Source: Escherichia phage vB_EcoM-pEB20
Sequence record: OP114733
Reading direction: 5' to 3' (one strand)
Length of the DNA stretch: 64,000 nucleotides
Part shown: positions 1 through 3,871 of the stretch, one piece after another
Numbering within the stretch: the first letter of the stretch is position 1
How the letters are laid out: each line of letters begins with the position of its first letter
Translations under genes and position numbers: made by a program
Notes under the pieces: model-generated
What the model was told of the DNA's origin: nothing
The model's input: the letters and a program-made list of their open reading frames with translations, nothing else
The model's database searches: none

Positions 1-1
1 G

Positions 2-238
2 TTAGGATTTATAGGGAACACTGGTGGATTCACAGACCAATGGCAGGACTTACGATATACTCAAGCCTTTGCATCCATTGCATCATTTTGTACTATAGTC
101 TATTTTTACTACGATTTTATAAACCATAACAAGAAAAATAAAAAGGTTTACGCTTCTCAAATGATTAGTTATAATGAACTCCTAGCTAGACGTGAAAATG
201 AAACAATCGAAAACTTTATTAAGGAATGTAGAAAATGA
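2..238 (+). CDS. 5'-truncated hydrophobic protein; C-terminus ENFIKECRK shared with ORF 2387..2692 (paralog)
   Basis: Open frame from window edge to TGA 236-238; ATGA overlap with next start; C-terminal motif match to 2387..2692. Confidence 0.4.
   Translation, partial: LGFIGNTGGFTDQWQDLRYTQAFASIASFCTIVYFYYDFINHNKKNKKVYASQMISYNELLARRENETIENFIKECRK
146..175 (+). promoter_or_regulatory. sigma70-type early promoter (GTTTAC -35, TATAAT -10) embedded in 3' end of upstream CDS
   Basis: GTTTAC at 146-151, 17-18 nt spacer, TATAAT about 170-175, upstream of ATG 235. Confidence 0.45.
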
Positions 239-540
239 GTAAGATTATTGAAATTAAAGTACCAGAGTTTAATGATGCCAAATCCGCTTCAGATGCAATT
301 TATAAACTTCTGAATCAAGCTGAACGTATCGAAGAAGAAGCAACAAAGATCGCAGACCAATATGCCGTATCATTTTCTGTAGGTGATTATGGTAGCGGTC
401 GTACTTATTATCCTAAGGGTGAAATCGTATCCCAGTGGATGAAAGATGAAATTGAAAATAATGGTGGCGATGTTAAGCGTGAAGGTAATGGTTACGTTAT
501 TACTGAAGGTGCTTGGGTTTCGTCTTCTGCGTTGTGCTAA
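235..540 (+). CDS. small acidic protein, member 1 of tandem paralog trio with conserved C-terminal GxWVxSSxxC
   Basis: ORF track; ends ...GAWVSSSALC; two paralogs immediately downstream. Confidence 0.6.
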   Translation: MSKIIEIKVPEFNDAKSASDAIYKLLNQAERIEEEATKIADQYAVSFSVGDYGSGRTYYPKGEIVSQWMKDEIENNGGDVKREGNGYVITEGAWVSSSALC

Positions 541-549
541 GGAATCATT

Positions 550-822
550 ATGTCTAAAGAACAAACCGAACTGGCTGAAGCTGTAGCAAAAATCTATGCA
601 GCTATTGAGGCTGCCAAAGAAATTGCTGATAAACAAAACACAACATTCGACTTGTACCCAGCTTATGGTATGGGTGGAACCTATCATTCACCCGGACATC
701 TTAAAGCCGATCTTGAACGTTGTACAAAAAACGGCTATGCTGAATGGGCTGACGTTTACCAATACGACTACAACCTGAGCCTTGAAGATGGCGGTTGGGT
801 TGCATCTTCTCACACTTGCTAA
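550..822 (+). CDS. paralog 2 of GxWVxSSxxC family
   Basis: ORF track; ends ...GGWVASSHTC. Confidence 0.6.
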   Translation: MSKEQTELAEAVAKIYAAIEAAKEIADKQNTTFDLYPAYGMGGTYHSPGHLKADLERCTKNGYAEWADVYQYDYNLSLEDGGWVASSHTC

Positions 823-831
823 GGAAACAAT

Positions 832-1029
832 ATGTCTCGTGAATTAGATTGTGCTGTACGTACGGCAGTAGCTGCTCTGGAAAACCTGTTCCAAATTGCA
901 ACAGAAGAACGCGAAGAAGTTACATTATGGATTGAAGATAACGCAGGTCTGAATCTCCAGGACGCGATCTCATTATCCCACAATAGTATCACTGTTCAAG
1001 GCTGGGTATCATCTAGTTATTCTTGCTAA
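832..1029 (+). CDS. paralog 3 of GxWVxSSxxC family
   Basis: ORF track; ends ...QGWVSSSYSC. Confidence 0.6.
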   Translation: MSRELDCAVRTAVAALENLFQIATEEREEVTLWIEDNAGLNLQDAISLSHNSITVQGWVSSSYSC

Positions 1030-1033
1030 AACA

Positions 1034-1063
1034 GTTTACAACAAGATAGGGCTATGTTATAGT
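1034..1063 (+). promoter_or_regulatory. early promoter inside imperfect inverted repeat (PeSL-like cassette)
   Basis: GTTTAC 1034-1039; -10 TATAGT near 1058; arms GATAGG/CCTATC flank the -10. Confidence 0.5.
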
Positions 1064-1091
1064 AGTCCTATCAAAACAAATGGAGTCCACA

Positions 1092-1331
1092 ATGATTTAT
1101 TACGAAAGTATCGGAACCAAAGTGGTTGGTAAAACCATTACTCGTGAAAAGTTTGCAAAGATATTCGATATGCGTTATAAAAAATCTGAACACAAAGGCA
1201 TCCGATTCGAAGATGCGCACTGTACAATTTGCCCTTATAATGAAGACATAAACGGTACAATCGTTCCATTGGTAGAGGCTTCACATGATGACCTCTGGGA
1301 TGAATATGATATCGCATGTCGTGAAATTTAA
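1092..1331 (+). CDS. hypothetical protein
   Basis: ORF 1080..1331; second in-frame ATG (M5) follows GGAG RBS in right arm of cassette. Confidence 0.5.
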   Translation: MIYYESIGTKVVGKTITREKFAKIFDMRYKKSEHKGIRFEDAHCTICPYNEDINGTIVPLVEASHDDLWDEYDIACREI

Positions 1332-1359: not shown

Positions 1360-2316
1360 ATGATGTTGGTTATTGGTTCTCGTGCACTTCACTATCACGG
1401 TCTTATTGATTCTAGCGCTATTAAAAATAGTGATTGGGACTTTATTGCGGACCAATGTTCTTGGAATGCATTCAAAAATCAAATGATGGGTGTATATGTT
1501 CACCAAGATAACCCTGATGTCCAAGTTTTCAAATGCTTCCATAATGGACGCGAAACTCATTTTGAAGCATATATTGTTCCGGCAATCACTAATGTCCGTG
1601 AATTAGTCGGTGAACTCACTCCTGAAGATTTCACGTCTTCTTATGACCTTTTAAAATACGCCAAGAAAAATTTGACTAAAGACCGTTTGAACGGGTTTTA
1701 CTGGGCAACTCCTGAGATATGTCTTGCAATTAAGATGTCTCATCGTTTCAAGAAAAATAATCCATTCTTTTTAAAGACTATGAACCATATTCAGTATCTT
1801 CGTGGTAAAGGTGTTACACTGGACGATGAACTTACTGAAATTATGCTGAAACGCCAGAAAGAAACCTTGAATTATGCTCACCCAGTTCTTGACACTTCTA
1901 AAAGTGCGTTCTTTAAAGATGACATCTATACATATGACCATGATACTATTCATGAAGCCATTGCACTAACAGACCGTCCAGCGTATACATTTTACATGAA
2001 AGATGGTTCTGAAGTCATGACCTCACGCGAGAAGTTCGAATCATTACCAGAAATGGTCAAATTGGCTGGTGTATACGAAGAATCATGTGTACTAGCGTTA
2101 GAACGTTCTCAGATTCCTAATAACTTTGAAATCCATCCACGTGATAGTTTTATGATGGCTCTTGAAAAGGTCTGTACTTCAATCACATCAGGTTGGTTCC
2201 GTGAATACGCCTGGGAAAACCACAGCAAAGTAGTAAGTATGTACCAAAGCTTAGGACATGACGATTACGTCAAACGTTTCAAACAAAATTTCCATATGGT
2301 AAAACCTTTCAAATAA
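1360..2316 (+). CDS. nucleotidyltransferase-fold protein (GS-x13-DxD motif near N-terminus)
   Basis: IGSRALHYHGLIDSSAIKNSDWDF resembles Pol-beta superfamily hG[GS]x9-13Dh[DE]h motif. Confidence 0.55.
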   Translation: MMLVIGSRALHYHGLIDSSAIKNSDWDFIADQCSWNAFKNQMMGVYVHQDNPDVQVFKCFHNGRETHFEAYIVPAITNVRELVGELTPEDFTSSYDLLKYAKKNLTKDRLNGFYWATPEICLAIKMSHRFKKNNPFFLKTMNHIQYLRGKGVTLDDELTEIMLKRQKETLNYAHPVLDTSKSAFFKDDIYTYDHDTIHEAIALTDRPAYTFYMKDGSEVMTSREKFESLPEMVKLAGVYEESCVLALERSQIPNNFEIHPRDSFMMALEKVCTSITSGWFREYAWENHSKVVSMYQSLGHDDYVKRFKQNFHMVKPFK

Positions 2317-2328
2317 TTTCGCAAAACT

Positions 2329-2366
2329 GTTTACATCTTGATAGGACTATGTTATAGTAGTCCTAT
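2329..2366 (+). promoter_or_regulatory. early promoter in perfect 9-bp inverted repeat (PeSL-like)
   Basis: GTTTAC 2329-2334; arms ATAGGACTA 2341-2349 and TAGTCCTAT 2358-2366 flank -10. Confidence 0.55.
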
Positions 2367-2386
2367 TAAAACATGAGGAGAATATT

Positions 2387-2693: not shown

Positions 2694-3380
2694 ATGAATA
2701 GTTCTAAAGTGTTTAATAGTCAAGCTCGTGCAGTAGGTGGTTTTGCTCATGCGATTAAAAATGACCAGATTAAAAACGAGCCTATGTTCTTTAACTGCGA
2801 TTTGAATTTTGCTTTTGATAATGGCGGCCCAATTACTCGTAGCTTTATCCAAAATCTTCCTGACGATTGGAAAGACTCGGATGTAGTATTTGATTCACGA
2901 GTCCACATGTTGATGCCTGGTTGGTATCCTGCTATCCCAGGTTATCACCATGACGATGTACCACGCCCGGATATTCCGGTTGGTCAACATTTTATTACTG
3001 CAGGACAACCTGACTATGACAACCCTCGTTACCATTCTGAACATATTCTTGGTCTTGTTAACGCTGATGTGTGTCCTACTCATTTTGCAACAGGAACTGC
3101 AGAGTTCAGTCAGATTCCTGATGGCGAACTTATCTATCGCCAGTGGCACAAAGAAGTCCTCGAAAAAATTGAAAAAGGTGAACTAGAGAAATGGGAAGCT
3201 CCAGACCGTACTCTTCTTCAGTTTGATTGGCAAACATGGCACACTGGCTCTCATGCAATTAGTAATGGATGGCGTTGGTTCGGACGTGTATCTCGTAATA
3301 CAGACCGAGTTAAAAAGATTACCAATGAAATTCGTGTCAATGCTCAAGTTTATCTGGAATTCCCTATGGAAGGCTGGTAA
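2694..3380 (+). CDS. hypothetical protein, His-rich (possible metal-dependent enzyme)
   Basis: ORF track; motifs YHHDD, HFATG, WHTGSH. Confidence 0.55.
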   Translation: MNSSKVFNSQARAVGGFAHAIKNDQIKNEPMFFNCDLNFAFDNGGPITRSFIQNLPDDWKDSDVVFDSRVHMLMPGWYPAIPGYHHDDVPRPDIPVGQHFITAGQPDYDNPRYHSEHILGLVNADVCPTHFATGTAEFSQIPDGELIYRQWHKEVLEKIEKGELEKWEAPDRTLLQFDWQTWHTGSHAISNGWRWFGRVSRNTDRVKKITNEIRVNAQVYLEFPMEGW

Positions 3381-3871
3381 TGATTAACAAAACATATTGG
3401 TCTAATATTGACGACGGCAATGAAGGTATTTCGTACTATTCAGTGGATTGGACAGGATGTCCATCCTACTTAGTGAAACATATTTGCCAAGAATTTAAAA
3501 TCGACCAGCCAGCAGGTATTATTGTGAACAGATACATTAATGGATATCAACCTATCGATGAAGTAATACGAACAACTCAAGCTGAGCTTGAAAAGTTTTT
3601 CAATAAGTGCCAATGGATAACAGGATGGATTATATTTGTACCGTCGGTATGGTTTTTTAGTACTAAGGTGAGTTCTTTCGGTTTTGTTGATATTACTGCT
3701 ATCTTATTAGCATCTAGTATCATAAGTGTTGTTGGTGGCATCATTGGCGGCGGTGCCGCCGCTATCATTATTAATCTTATTAAAAGTAGTTTACAAGAAC
3801 GTAAAGACAAGATAAAAGCCAAGAATAATGAAGTTGAACGTTTTATTACCGAATGCAGGAATTTGAGATGA
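3380..3871 (+). CDS. membrane protein with Gly-rich TM segment
   Basis: ORF track; IISVVGGIIGGGAAAIIINLI hydrophobic stretch. Confidence 0.55.
   Translation: MINKTYWSNIDDGNEGISYYSVDWTGCPSYLVKHICQEFKIDQPAGIIVNRYINGYQPIDEVIRTTQAELEKFFNKCQWITGWIIFVPSVWFFSTKVSSFGFVDITAILLASSIISVVGGIIGGGAAAIIINLIKSSLQERKDKIKAKNNEVERFITECRNLR

What the first reader, a model, noticed from the sequence alone, without database searches (positions are those of the whole stretch)
235..1029. Tandem trio of small proteins with conserved C-terminal G-x-W-V-x-S-S-x-x-C
Three adjacent ORFs of 101, 90 and 65 aa end in GAWVSSSALC, GGWVASSHTC and QGWVSSSYSC, with divergent N-terminal parts. An invariant C-terminal Cys three residues from the end and a conserved Trp suggest a shared C-terminal interaction or modification module. 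I do not recognise the family.
Basis: seen in the sequence. Interest (0 to 1): 0.5.

Follow-up and report, generated by a model that had tools for sequence, protein, structure and literature searches.

The report
Cys-tailed phage mini-proteins with partner enzyme
The three small genes are real members of a large, uncharacterised, phage-only family of acidic mini-proteins ending in W-x-x-S-S-x-x-Cys, and almost everywhere they sit just upstream of one uncharacterised, probably nucleotide-transferring enzyme, which points to an undescribed two-part phage system.

Summary
The window is an RB69-like T-even phage (Mosigvirus). The trio corresponds to RB69ORF139c, 137c and 136c.

- **Motif.** The tail W-x-x-S-S-(0-3 residues)-Cys-stop is conserved at protein level in T4-like, Phapecoctavirus, jumbo Xanthomonas and many metagenomic phages. 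A profile search found 968 clusters of 60-150 aa with the domain at the C-terminus in all 150 hits listed. 290 of 308 retrieved proteins end in Cys.
- **Proteins.** They are acidic (median pI 4.45). They have no Pfam family, and a confident AlphaFold model (pLDDT 90) matches no solved structure.
- **Main new result.** One to six tandem copies lie directly upstream, on the same strand, of a DUF7277+DUF7275 protein (window 1360-2316). This held in 76 of 79 evaluable loci found through the enzyme and in 25 of 25 evaluable loci found through the small protein. No third gene is conserved.
- **Enzyme.** Its N-terminus has the invariant G-S...D-x-D...E pattern of Pol-beta-type nucleotidyltransferases. 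Statistical support for that assignment is lacking.
- **Best reading (inferred).** The small proteins are dedicated partners, probably substrates, of this enzyme, and the tail is the site acted on. The module is an early-expressed host-takeover or counter-defence system.

Function is untested.

The parts
235..540 (+). ORF1, 101 aa, class A Cys-tail protein (orthologue of RB69ORF139c). N-terminal helix, D-Y-G-S-G-R-T-Y-Y motif, tail G-A-W-V-S-S-S-A-L-C-stop. Its start codon overlaps the stop of the upstream e.3-like membrane-protein gene (ATGA).
   Evidence: (phrog_899, E 1e-22)
550..822 (+). ORF2, 90 aa, class B Cys-tail protein (orthologue of RB69ORF137c). This is the most widespread class: A-Y-G-M-G-G-T-Y motif, tail G-G-W-V-A-S-S-H-T-C-stop.
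   Evidence: (AF2 pLDDT 89.9)
832..1029 (+). ORF3, 65 aa, class C Cys-tail protein (orthologue of RB69ORF136c, phrog_4882). It shares only the tail Q-G-W-V-S-S-S-Y-S-C-stop detectably with ORF1 and ORF2.
514..537 (+). Tail motif of ORF1 (W94-C101)
796..819 (+). Tail motif of ORF2 (W83-C90)
1003..1026 (+). Tail motif of ORF3 (W58-C65)
147..175 (+). Promoter-like site (TTTACG-17-TATAAT) inside the upstream e.3-like gene. The same position is annotated as a T4 middle-promoter-like site in phage SA79RD. It is the likely promoter for the trio.
1035..1072 (+). T4-early-promoter-like site (TTTACA-17-TATAGT, 1035-1063) overlapping a stable hairpin (1045-1072, -16 kcal/mol, z -4.9). It separates the trio from the next transcription unit and is annotated as a terminator in SA79RD.
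1360..2316 (+). 318-aa DUF7277 + DUF7275 protein (orthologue of RB69ORF134c, phrog_2141). It is the conserved partner gene of the Cys-tail family. It carries an N-terminal G6-S7...D25-x-D27...E69 nucleotidyltransferase-like signature and many invariant His, Asp, Glu, Arg and Lys residues plus one invariant Cys (C272) in the C-terminal domain.

Best explanation
The trio are three paralogues of a large, phage-restricted family of small (60-150 aa), acidic, cytoplasmic proteins.

**Shown.** The family is defined by a C-terminal tail, G-W-x-[S/A/P]-S-S-(0-3 residues)-Cys, almost always followed by the stop codon. One to six tandem copies form a two-part gene module with the enzyme-like DUF7277+DUF7275 protein encoded just downstream.

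**Inferred (1).** That protein is a Pol-beta-type nucleotidyltransferase joined to a metal-binding helical domain.

**Inferred (2).** The small proteins are its dedicated protein partners. Most likely they are substrates or carriers whose exposed Ser-Ser...Cys tail enters the active site and is covalently modified, for example O- or S-nucleotidylylated. The Trp anchors the tail to the small alpha/beta body, and the divergent, acidic bodies give each paralogue a different downstream target.

**Inferred (3).** The genes lie behind early/middle promoter-like sites in a hyperplastic accessory region of lytic phages. The module therefore probably acts early in infection, in host takeover or counter-defence.
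For: **Family and tail**
- Five paralogue classes in T4-like phages keep only M1, W, S, S and the terminal C invariant.
- In the 72-sequence alignment of classes A and B, G42, W83, S86 and C90 are invariant.
- 968 clusters (representatives at 50% identity) match the profile at E<=1e-3, and in all 150 hits listed the match reaches the protein's C-terminus.
- 290 of 308 retrieved proteins end in Cys and 13 more end in Cys plus one residue.
- The tail is the most conserved part of the protein, yet the last 10-residue block has the lowest model confidence (mean pLDDT 78, against 94-98 in the preceding three blocks, residues 51-80). This is as expected for an exposed functional peptide.

**Module**
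- Of 80 viral loci retrieved with the enzyme alone, 70 have at least one profile hit to the small family. All are on the same strand and all but one lie within about 2.5 kb upstream.
- Six more loci have divergent W..SS..C-stop ORFs upstream, and one locus has no upstream DNA, giving 76 of 79.
- Of 28 loci retrieved with the small protein alone, 25 have the enzyme downstream. The other 3 contigs end before it could appear.
- Across 113 loci in 35 enzyme lineages, the small family is the only widely shared neighbour (29 lineages; the next family is in 5).
- The pairing recurs in a Xanthomonas jumbo phage, a Phapecoctavirus and unrelated metagenomic phages.
- In many loci the genes abut or overlap, for example a 16-nt gap in L009 and overlapping genes in L123.

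**Enzyme**
- G6, S7, D25 and D27 are invariant in 32 diverse sequences, and position 69 is E or D in 30 of 32, in the pattern hhhGS-x(10-17)-DhDhh...hEhhh.
- The family consensus gives a weak hit to Pfam PF10706, aminoglycoside 2''-adenylyltransferase (E 0.12).
- hhalign places GS and DxD on G27-G28 and D44/D46 of ANT(2'')-Ia.
- One GenBank annotator independently named an orthologue 'putative nucleotidyltransferase'.
- The C-terminal domain has about 45 invariant residues rich in H, D, E, R and K, as enzymes do.

**Phage restriction**
- There are 6 hits in 185,579 bacterial and archaeal species genomes, all on MAG contigs, and no full-length homologue on plasmids (three partial matches at 31-34% identity).

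**Early expression**
- Promoter-like sites lie upstream.
Against: - No experiment or structure links the tail to the enzyme. Synteny shows partnership, not its chemistry.
- The nucleotidyltransferase assignment rests on a short motif. The Pfam hit is below threshold, hhalign probability is 0.4%, profile searches of the PDB find nothing, and the single-sequence AlphaFold model of the enzyme is unusable (pLDDT 42).
- The spacing between Ser-Ser and Cys varies (0, 2 or 3 residues), so a single rigid active-site geometry for both groups is unlikely.
- In Acinetobacter T4-like phages some tails have lost the Cys (...SPSSESY...NSNWSNSES) while the enzyme is unchanged.
- Three evaluable loci have the enzyme without any partner. 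Distant actinophage and roseophage homologues of the enzyme also lack the partner.
- In the window itself a promoter/hairpin and an 83-aa gene separate the trio from the enzyme gene.
Confidence: 0.4

Rival explanations
1. The partnership is non-covalent. The small proteins are regulatory subunits, specificity adaptors or inhibitors of the enzyme. The tail docks into it, for example with the terminal Cys thiolate capping an active-site metal like a 'cysteine switch', or the small acidic protein acts like an antitoxin towards a toxic nucleotidyltransferase. The several paralogues direct or restrain the enzyme towards different host targets.
For: - The synteny evidence is the same as for the best explanation.
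- The gene order, with a small acidic protein upstream of a larger enzyme, is the classic antitoxin-toxin arrangement.
- The enzyme has invariant His, Asp and Glu residues that could bind a metal, and one invariant Cys (C272).
- Variable Ser-Ser-to-Cys spacing and occasional loss of the Cys are easier to tolerate in a docking peptide than in a substrate.
Against: - Up to six paralogous inhibitors for one enzyme has no obvious rationale.
- The absolute invariance of two consecutive Ser residues suggests chemistry rather than mere docking.
- These are lytic phages, where addiction modules are unusual.
Confidence: 0.3
2. The small proteins are autonomous effectors, for example ligand or nucleotide 'sponges', decoys, or acidic mimics that bind a host protein. 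The Gly-rich Y-G-M-G-G-T-Y loop plus the Ser-Ser...Cys tail would form their own binding site. The enzyme is only a co-regulated neighbour acting in the same pathway, for example making or destroying the ligand.
For: - The proteins are small, acidic (median pI 4.45, net charge -8) and occur as tandem paralogues. From general knowledge, these features are typical of phage anti-defence sponges and mimics.
- There are two conserved Gly/Ser/Thr-rich elements, Y-G-M-G-G-T-Y and S-S-x-x-C.
- The fold is a confident, compact, independent domain.
- A few loci have the enzyme without partners.
Against: - Classes C and D lack the Y-G-M-G-G loop but keep the tail.
- A reciprocal association of about 96-100% across 29 of 35 lineages is tighter than is usual for merely co-regulated accessory genes in hyperplastic regions.
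- There is no similarity to any solved structure, known sponges included, and the BFVD matches are all uncharacterised family members.
Confidence: 0.17
3. The proteins are RiPP-like or carrier-like and undergo C-terminal chemistry. The tail would be processed into a thioether (a Ser-derived dehydroalanine plus Cys, lanthionine-like) or the terminal carboxylate would be activated, as in ThiS/MoaD, microcin C or AviCys systems.
For: - Ser-x-x-Cys-COOH resembles the ring-forming motifs of lanthipeptides and AviCys peptides (from general knowledge of those families).
- The arrangement is tandem precursor-like genes next to one enzyme.
- All spacing variants (0-3 residues) could still give small rings.
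Against: - No LanB/LanM/LanKC, LanD, YcaO, radical-SAM or E1-like gene is conserved nearby. The only conserved neighbour is DUF7277/DUF7275.
- The bodies are folded domains of 60-100 aa, not leader peptides.
- The tail also functions internally, in class D (W-L-N-S-S-C-Y-G-E-E) and in the two-domain fusion P0171. Thirteen proteins carry one residue after the Cys. A free Cys carboxylate is therefore not required.
- The fold is not beta-grasp and the proteins do not end in Gly-Gly.
Confidence: 0.06
4. The shared tail is an artefact: chance, a DNA-level repeat, or a by-product of the overlapping Shine-Dalgarno and stop signals (TGC-TAA-GGA) used for translational coupling.
For: Two of the three junctions read TGCTAAGGA, where the stop codon overlaps the next gene's ribosome-binding site.
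Against: - ORF3 keeps the motif with no coupled downstream gene.
- Codons differ synonymously between copies.
- The motif is conserved in hundreds of distant proteins with unrelated DNA.
- Window-wide counts exclude chance.
Confidence: 0.01

Closest known systems
PHROG families phrog_899 (ORF1, ORF2) and phrog_4882 (ORF3), with phrog_2141 / Pfam DUF7277 (PF23942) + DUF7275 (PF23940) for the neighbouring enzyme
   Same: These are direct, significant sequence matches (E 1e-19 to 1e-149). They are the same families.
   Different: All are catalogued only as 'unknown function'. As far as the searches here could see, no source records the tail motif, the tandem arrays or the pairing of the small family with DUF7277/DUF7275.
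Protein nucleotidylylation pairs built on Pol-beta-fold nucleotidyltransferases: GlnD-PII (uridylylation of a small signalling protein by an NTase+HD enzyme), MntA-HepT (AMPylation of a partner encoded next door), and MdcG/CitX, which attach a nucleotide-derived prosthetic group to a Ser of a small acidic carrier protein
   Same: In each case, as inferred here, an enzyme with a G-S...D-x-D signature sits next to, or acts on, a small dedicated protein partner. In the MdcG/CitX case the partner is acidic and the acceptor is a Ser. This comparison uses general knowledge of those systems; the motif evidence is.
   Different: There is no significant sequence or profile similarity to any of these families. 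The small proteins have neither a PII, HEPN nor ACP fold. The acceptor would be a C-terminal Ser-Ser...Cys tail. There are one to six paralogous partners. The system is confined to lytic phages.
Aminoglycoside 2''-nucleotidyltransferase ANT(2'')-Ia (Pfam PF10706, PDB 4WQK)
   Same: It is the only known family touched by the enzyme's N-terminal consensus (E 0.12). hhalign superposes G6-S7 and D25/D27 on G27-G28 and D44/D46.
   Different: The match is below any significance threshold (probability 0.4%). The phage protein has a 190-aa conserved C-terminal domain that ANT(2'') lacks.
Type II antitoxins of the Phd/YefM/RelB fold
Lanthipeptide / AviCys-type RiPP precursors
   Same: They occur as tandem small genes with a conserved Ser...Cys C-terminal segment next to an enzyme gene.
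   Different: No known RiPP enzyme is present. The bodies are folded and conserved, while the 'core' is invariant rather than variable. The motif also occurs internally.

Membership tests
Cys-tail small-protein family (phrog_899 / phrog_4882) | Significant profile match to the PHROG models | tested here: met
   ORF1 E 1.3e-22 and ORF2 E 4.8e-19 to phrog_899; ORF3 E 7.7e-37 to phrog_4882.
Cys-tail small-protein family (as defined here) | C-terminal W-x-x-S-S-(0-3 residues)-Cys at or one residue from the stop codon | tested here: met
   All three window ORFs have it. 290 of 308 family members end in Cys, and 13 more in Cys plus one residue.
Cys-tail small-protein family (as defined here) | Located upstream, on the same strand, of a DUF7277+DUF7275 gene | tested here: met
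   The window trio ends at 1029 and the enzyme gene is at 1360-2316. The rule holds generally: 76/79 and 25/25 evaluable loci.
Pfam DUF7277 + DUF7275 (neighbouring enzyme) | Score above Pfam gathering threshold for both domains | tested here: met
   DUF7275 scores 261.9 bits (cut-off 27) and DUF7277 scores 96.7 bits (cut-off 27).
Pol-beta-type nucleotidyltransferase superfamily (for the neighbouring enzyme) | hG[GS] motif followed after about 9-17 residues by [DE]h[DE]h | tested here: met
   G6, S7, D25 and D27 are invariant in 32 diverse sequences, with spacing of 10-17 residues.
Pol-beta-type nucleotidyltransferase superfamily (for the neighbouring enzyme) | Third catalytic carboxylate on a downstream beta-strand | tested here: inconclusive
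   Position 69 is E or D in 30 of 32 sequences, in an h-E-h-x-I-h pattern. The strand assignment could not be verified without a usable model.
Pol-beta-type nucleotidyltransferase superfamily (for the neighbouring enzyme) | Significant sequence or profile similarity to a recognised member family | tested here: not met
   The best result is PF10706 at E 0.12, below its cut-off. hhalign against ANT(2'')-Ia gives probability 0.4%. There are no PDB hits.
Pol-beta-type nucleotidyltransferase superfamily (for the neighbouring enzyme) | alpha-beta-alpha-beta-alpha-beta core fold | not testable with these tools
   Homologues could not be supplied to the structure predictor. The single-sequence model has pLDDT 42.
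Phd/YefM-type antitoxins | Significant structural similarity to the fold | tested here: not met
Lanthipeptide / RiPP precursor | Conserved neighbouring RiPP maturation enzyme (LanB/M/KC/L, LanD, YcaO, radical SAM) | tested here: not met
   The only neighbour conserved across lineages is DUF7277/DUF7275. The Pfam scan of that protein finds no such domain.
Ubiquitin-like / sulfur-carrier proteins (ThiS, MoaD) | Beta-grasp fold and C-terminal Gly-Gly | tested here: not met
   The model is a long helix plus a three-stranded sheet plus short helices. The C-terminus is Cys.
Known anti-defence / defence protein families (PADLOC-DB) | Profile match | tested here: not met
   There is no hit better than E 0.009 for any of the five proteins.

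The most novel reading that the evidence does not exclude
The module is a previously unknown phage protein-modification system. An orphan nucleotidyltransferase-like enzyme covalently loads a nucleotide or nucleotide-derived group onto the Ser-Ser...Cys tail of a set of dedicated, ribosomally made carrier proteins. The loaded paralogues then act as effectors, each against a different host target or immune signal. This would be a new class of enzyme-armed phage counter-defence or host-takeover proteins.
Probability: 0.25. Interest if true: 0.85.

Novelty: new variant of a known kind. Interest (0 to 1): 0.66.

Why it matters
T-even and other large lytic phages carry hundreds of small early genes of unknown function in hyperplastic regions. 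Many recently solved cases turned out to be counter-defence or host-takeover factors.

This work turns three anonymous ORFs into a defined, testable system:
- a family of about 1,000 sequence clusters with a very simple signature (W-x-x-S-S-x-x-Cys-stop);
- a fold with no solved relative;
- a single, near-obligate enzyme partner (DUF7277/DUF7275) found in more than 700 sequenced phages infecting Escherichia, Klebsiella, Acinetobacter, Aeromonas, Pseudomonas, Xanthomonas, Vibrio and other hosts.

The pairing gives both DUF domains their first functional context. It also suggests a direct experiment: co-expression followed by mass spectrometry of a 65-101 aa protein.

If the tail is enzymatically modified, this would be a new kind of phage-encoded post-translational chemistry. 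If it is only bound, it would be a new adaptor or inhibitor logic for a phage enzyme. Both outcomes matter for phage-host biology and for annotating phage genomes used in therapy.

Tried and rejected
1. **Annotation libraries.** Pfam, NCBIfam and PADLOC scans of the three proteins gave nothing significant.
2. **PDB by sequence.** Searches with the single protein and with profiles, for both the small family and the enzyme, returned only noise such as designed helical proteins and PsaB.
4. **Structure of the enzyme.** The single-sequence model has pLDDT 42 and was not used.
5. **Nucleotidyltransferase test.** The consensus scan and hhalign against ANT(2'')-Ia gave the right motif register but no statistical support. 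The assignment is therefore kept as an inference only.
6. **Is ORF3 a full-length homologue of ORF1 and ORF2?** With tails removed, hhalign gives probability 2%. Homology beyond the tail is not demonstrable.
7. **A third conserved component.** The 83-aa ORF at 1080-1331 (phrog_3723) is confined to 3 of 35 lineages, and no other family exceeds 5 lineages. This idea was rejected.
8. **Bacterial or plasmid origin.** There are 6 MAG contigs in 185,579 genomes and no full-length plasmid homologue (three partial matches at 31-34% identity). This idea was rejected.
9. **Literature.** Searches by Pfam and PHROG ids, RB69 ORF names, protein accessions, motif strings and keywords found no description.
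10. **Disulfide or multi-Cys metal site within one chain.** 161 of 303 members have only the terminal Cys. This idea was rejected.
11. **Chance, DNA repeat or Shine-Dalgarno artefact.** Rejected.
Full report
**1.

The first 2.4 kb of the window is 98.5% identical to Escherichia phage APCEc01 and about 98% identical to many other Mosigvirus (RB69-like T-even) phages. The three ORFs lie between the e.3-like membrane-protein gene and the e.2 / nudE / lysozyme (e) block, in a region that T4 itself does not have. They correspond to RB69ORF139c, 137c and 136c.

ORFs 235-540, 550-822 and 832-1029 encode 101, 90 and 65 aa. They end in GAWVSSSALC, GGWVASSHTC and QGWVSSSYSC.

The pattern is not chance. 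Only 4 of 282 window ORFs of 50 aa or more end in Cys, and three of them are the trio. W..SS.{0,3}C occurs only 4 times in all six-frame ORFs, three times here. The three tails are only 70-75% identical in DNA and differ at synonymous positions. ORF3 keeps the tail although it is followed by a hairpin and promoter rather than a coupled gene. The constraint is therefore on the protein.

**2. The family**

In JS98, Enterobacter phage Q7622, Klebsiella phage F48, Edwardsiella phage PEi20 and Pectobacterium phage PM2, the same locus carries three to five tandem small genes. They fall into five classes:
- **Class A** is like ORF1.
- **Class B** is like ORF2.
- **Class C** is like ORF3.
- **Class D** is about 75 aa and carries the motif twice, internally as D-W-L-N-S-S-C-Y-G-E-E and at the end as W-Y-P-S-S-C-stop.
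- **Class E** ends in F-W-Y-S-S-S-M-Q-N-C-stop.

A Xanthomonas jumbo phage, XbC2, has two adjacent members. In a 30-sequence alignment of all classes, the only invariant columns are the initiator Met and W, S, S and the terminal C.

Profile searches widen the family greatly. The word-indexed search found 561 proteins. An exhaustive HMMER search of 1.84 billion cluster representatives found 968 at E<=1e-3 and 426 at E<=1e-10. All 150 listed are 72-149 aa, and in all of them the match runs to the protein's C-terminus.

The canonical (class B) layout is:
- an N-terminal amphipathic helix;
- an F-x-F strand;
- A-Y-G-M-G-G-T-Y-Y;
- a variable, often very acidic linker of 4 to about 50 residues;
- G-W-x-[S/A/P]-S-S-x-x-C-stop.

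Among 308 retrieved sequences:

| Feature | Count or value |
|---|---|
| End in Cys | 290 |
| End in Cys plus one residue | 13 |
| Truncated, frameshifted or aberrant | 5 |
| Two residues between Ser-Ser and Cys | 241 (plus 13 that carry one residue after the Cys) |
| No residues between Ser-Ser and Cys | 35 |
| Three residues between Ser-Ser and Cys | 13 |
| Median pI | 4.45 |
| Median net charge | -8 |
| Only one Cys in the chain | 161 of 303 |

ORF1 and ORF2 belong to one profile. With the tail removed, the body of ORF3 is not detectably related to them (hhalign probability 2%). The tail is thus the unifying element. The family has no Pfam, NCBIfam or PADLOC model, and PHROGs lists it as 'unknown function'.

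**3. Structure of the small protein**

AlphaFold2 on ORF2 with the 72-sequence alignment gave a confident model (mean pLDDT 89.9, pTM 0.73). Its elements are helix 3-29, strands 32-35 and 43-46 flanking the Gly-rich loop, helix 48-60, a short helix, strand 81-85 (G-G-W-V-A) and a terminal turn 86-89.

My inference from the strand pattern is that the Trp packs into the core. Position -6 is variable and often polar. Position -5 is small. A22 and A26 on the helix are nearly invariant. Together these suggest the Trp packs against those Ala residues, fixing the start of an exposed tail. Consistent with that, the most conserved segment has the lowest block confidence (78).

No solved structure resembles the model:
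- Foldseek against the PDB gives nothing.
- BFVD returns only uncharacterised family members from Yersinia, Pseudomonas, Acinetobacter and Aeromonas phages.

**4. The conserved partner**

Two distant metagenomic members (P0148, P0164) lie immediately upstream of a DUF7277+DUF7275 protein. This is the same Pfam architecture as window ORF 1360-2316 and as XbC2 gp84. I tested the link in both directions.

- **From the enzyme.** I retrieved 80 viral loci. Of these, 70 contain one to six profile hits to the small family, all on the enzyme's strand and all but one within about 2.5 kb upstream. Of the ten misses, six have obvious divergent W..SS..C-stop ORFs upstream, one has no upstream DNA, and three (two of them near-identical) have none. 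That makes 76 of 79 evaluable loci.
- **From the small protein.** I retrieved 28 loci. Of these, 25 have the enzyme downstream, and the other three contigs end within 900 nt.
- **Neighbourhood clustering.** BLAST clustering of all neighbouring ORFs covered 113 loci, some of them the same contigs fetched twice, grouped into 35 lineages at 60% enzyme identity. The small family is the only broadly shared neighbour (29 lineages, 103 loci, 246 genes). The next family reaches 5 lineages. The 83-aa ORF at 1080-1331 reaches only 3.

The pairing also holds in a Phapecoctavirus, which again has a trio, of classes B, D and A.

The enzyme occurs in 733 GenBank phage records across many host genera. It is essentially absent from cellular genomes, with 6 MAG contigs in 185,579 species, and no full-length homologue on plasmids.

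The exceptions are informative:
- In Acinetobacter T4-like phages the tails are degenerate and some lack the Cys.
- Distant actinophage and roseophage homologues of the enzyme lack the S-G-W-F-R-E-Y-A-W-E-N motif, have no Cys-tail partner, and sit near RNA-repair or tRNA genes.

**5. What the enzyme might be**

In 32 diverse sequences G6, S7, D25 and D27 are invariant, and position 69 is E or D in 30 of them. The pattern is hhhGS-x(10-17)-DhDhh...hEhIh. This is the signature of Pol-beta-type nucleotidyltransferases, as established in the general literature on that superfamily.

Support beyond the motif is weak:
- The family consensus hits Pfam PF10706 (ANT(2'')) at E 0.12.
- hhalign puts the motifs in register with G27-G28 and D44/D46 of ANT(2'')-Ia, but at probability 0.4%.
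- One GenBank submitter calls an orthologue 'putative nucleotidyltransferase'.

Profile searches of the PDB found nothing.

The DUF7275 domain has about 45 invariant residues. They include K125, H128, H174, H194-D195, H198, E240-E241, E248-R249, C272 and W279-R281-E282. This looks like a catalytic or metal- and phosphate-binding domain. Any resemblance to HD-type phosphohydrolases is only my impression and was not tested.

**6. Mechanism**

*Shown.* There is a phage-restricted two-gene module: tandem Cys-tail mini-proteins followed by a DUF7277/DUF7275 enzyme. The tail is invariant, the bodies are divergent and acidic, and the genes lie behind early/middle promoter-like sites.

*Inferred.* I propose that the enzyme is a nucleotidyltransferase and that the small proteins are its dedicated partners through the tail. 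My preferred version (confidence 0.4) is covalent modification of the tail's Ser or Cys. The paralogous bodies would then direct the product to different targets.

The main rival (0.3) is non-covalent regulation, adaptor function or inhibition, in the manner of an antitoxin or a cysteine switch. A third reading (0.17) treats the small proteins as autonomous binders or sponges and the enzyme as a pathway neighbour.

RiPP-like or C-terminal-activation chemistry is unlikely (0.06), for three reasons:
- No known maturation enzyme is conserved nearby.
- The bodies are folded domains.
- The motif also works internally or with a trailing residue.

Artefact explanations are excluded.

**7. Comparison with known systems, and novelty**

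Functionally, the nearest analogies are protein-nucleotidylylation pairs (GlnD-PII, MntA-HepT) and the NTase-fold holo-ACP synthases MdcG/CitX, which load a small acidic carrier protein on a Ser. Membership in any of these families is not supported: there is no significant sequence or fold similarity for either component.

The sequences are already catalogued (PHROGs and Pfam DUFs), but only as unknowns. Searches by identifiers, accessions, motif strings and keywords found no paper describing the tail, the arrays or the pairing.

I rate it a new variant of a known kind, namely an enzyme plus a dedicated small-protein partner. There is a real chance (about 0.25) that it is a new protein-modification system. 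Interest is 0.66: it is a large, sharply defined, experimentally tractable orphan module in well-studied model phages, but its function is still inferred.

Noticed in passing
window 1-238 (e.3-like gene end), 2387-2692, 3380-3871; also L003-L007, L034: A second, unrelated C-terminal motif recurs in the small, mostly membrane, proteins around the trio: ...F-I-x-E-C-R-(x)-K/R-stop. Examples are ENFIKECRK, NFIKECRGK and RFITECRNLR in the window, and FIAECRE, FIKECKS, FIQMCRGN, FIKYCRGK, FINQCRRK and FIRMCRKN in related phages. It may mark another paralogous family of early membrane proteins.
   Followed up: no
window 1031-1078 and 2322-2372: A nearly identical 45-nt element occurs after ORF3 and again after the enzyme gene. 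It combines a T4-early-promoter-like site (TTTACA-17-TATAGT) with a stable hairpin (-16 kcal/mol, z -4.9). The hairpin is not followed by a T-run, yet it is annotated as a terminator in phage SA79RD.
   Followed up: partly
window 2317-2386 versus L001 5336-5658, L002 5317-5655: Most close relatives carry an extra insert of about 270 bp with a 201-bp coiled-coil ORF (SA79RD_132, APCEc01_170) between the enzyme gene and the next gene. This window lacks it, as do a few other phages such as CAU_ECP01 and AV111.
   Followed up: no
P0002 (RB69 ORF139c, 71 aa), P0117 (phage mar005P1, 75 aa), P0006: Natural truncations of individual paralogues exist. In RB69 itself the ORF1 orthologue is frameshifted and loses the tail, and in mar005P1 the ORF2 orthologue is frameshifted. 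Single copies are therefore dispensable, at least in the laboratory or in some hosts.
   Followed up: partly
window 1080-1331: An 83-aa ORF (phrog_3723, ...RFEDAHC.ICPYNEDI...) sits between the trio and the enzyme gene. It is conserved in that position only in enterobacterial T4-like phages (3 of 35 lineages), so it is not a core part of the module.
   Followed up: partly
L128 (Streptomyces phage Muntaha), L129 (Gordonia phage Aphelion), L130 (roseophage DSS3_VP1): Distant homologues of the enzyme keep the G-S...D-x-D N-terminus. They lack the W-F-R-E-Y-A-W-E-N motif and have no Cys-tail partner. They sit next to polynucleotide kinase, RNA ligase 2 / phosphoesterase, or a tRNA gene cluster, which hints that the ancestral enzyme may act on RNA.
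   Followed up: no
P0018 (Klebsiella phage vB_KpnM-VAC36) and hit H116 (Escherichia phage vB_EcoM_JQD51): There are public mis-annotations. A 77-aa class D Cys-tail protein and a DUF7275 orthologue are each labelled 'major capsid protein' in GenBank records.
   Followed up: no
P0171 (134 aa, metagenome): This is a natural fusion of two Cys-tail domains in one chain. The first tail is internal (...F-G-W-A-A-S-S-Q-S-C-W-E-M-N...) and the second is degenerate (...V-W-D-H-S-G-C-A-F).
   Followed up: no
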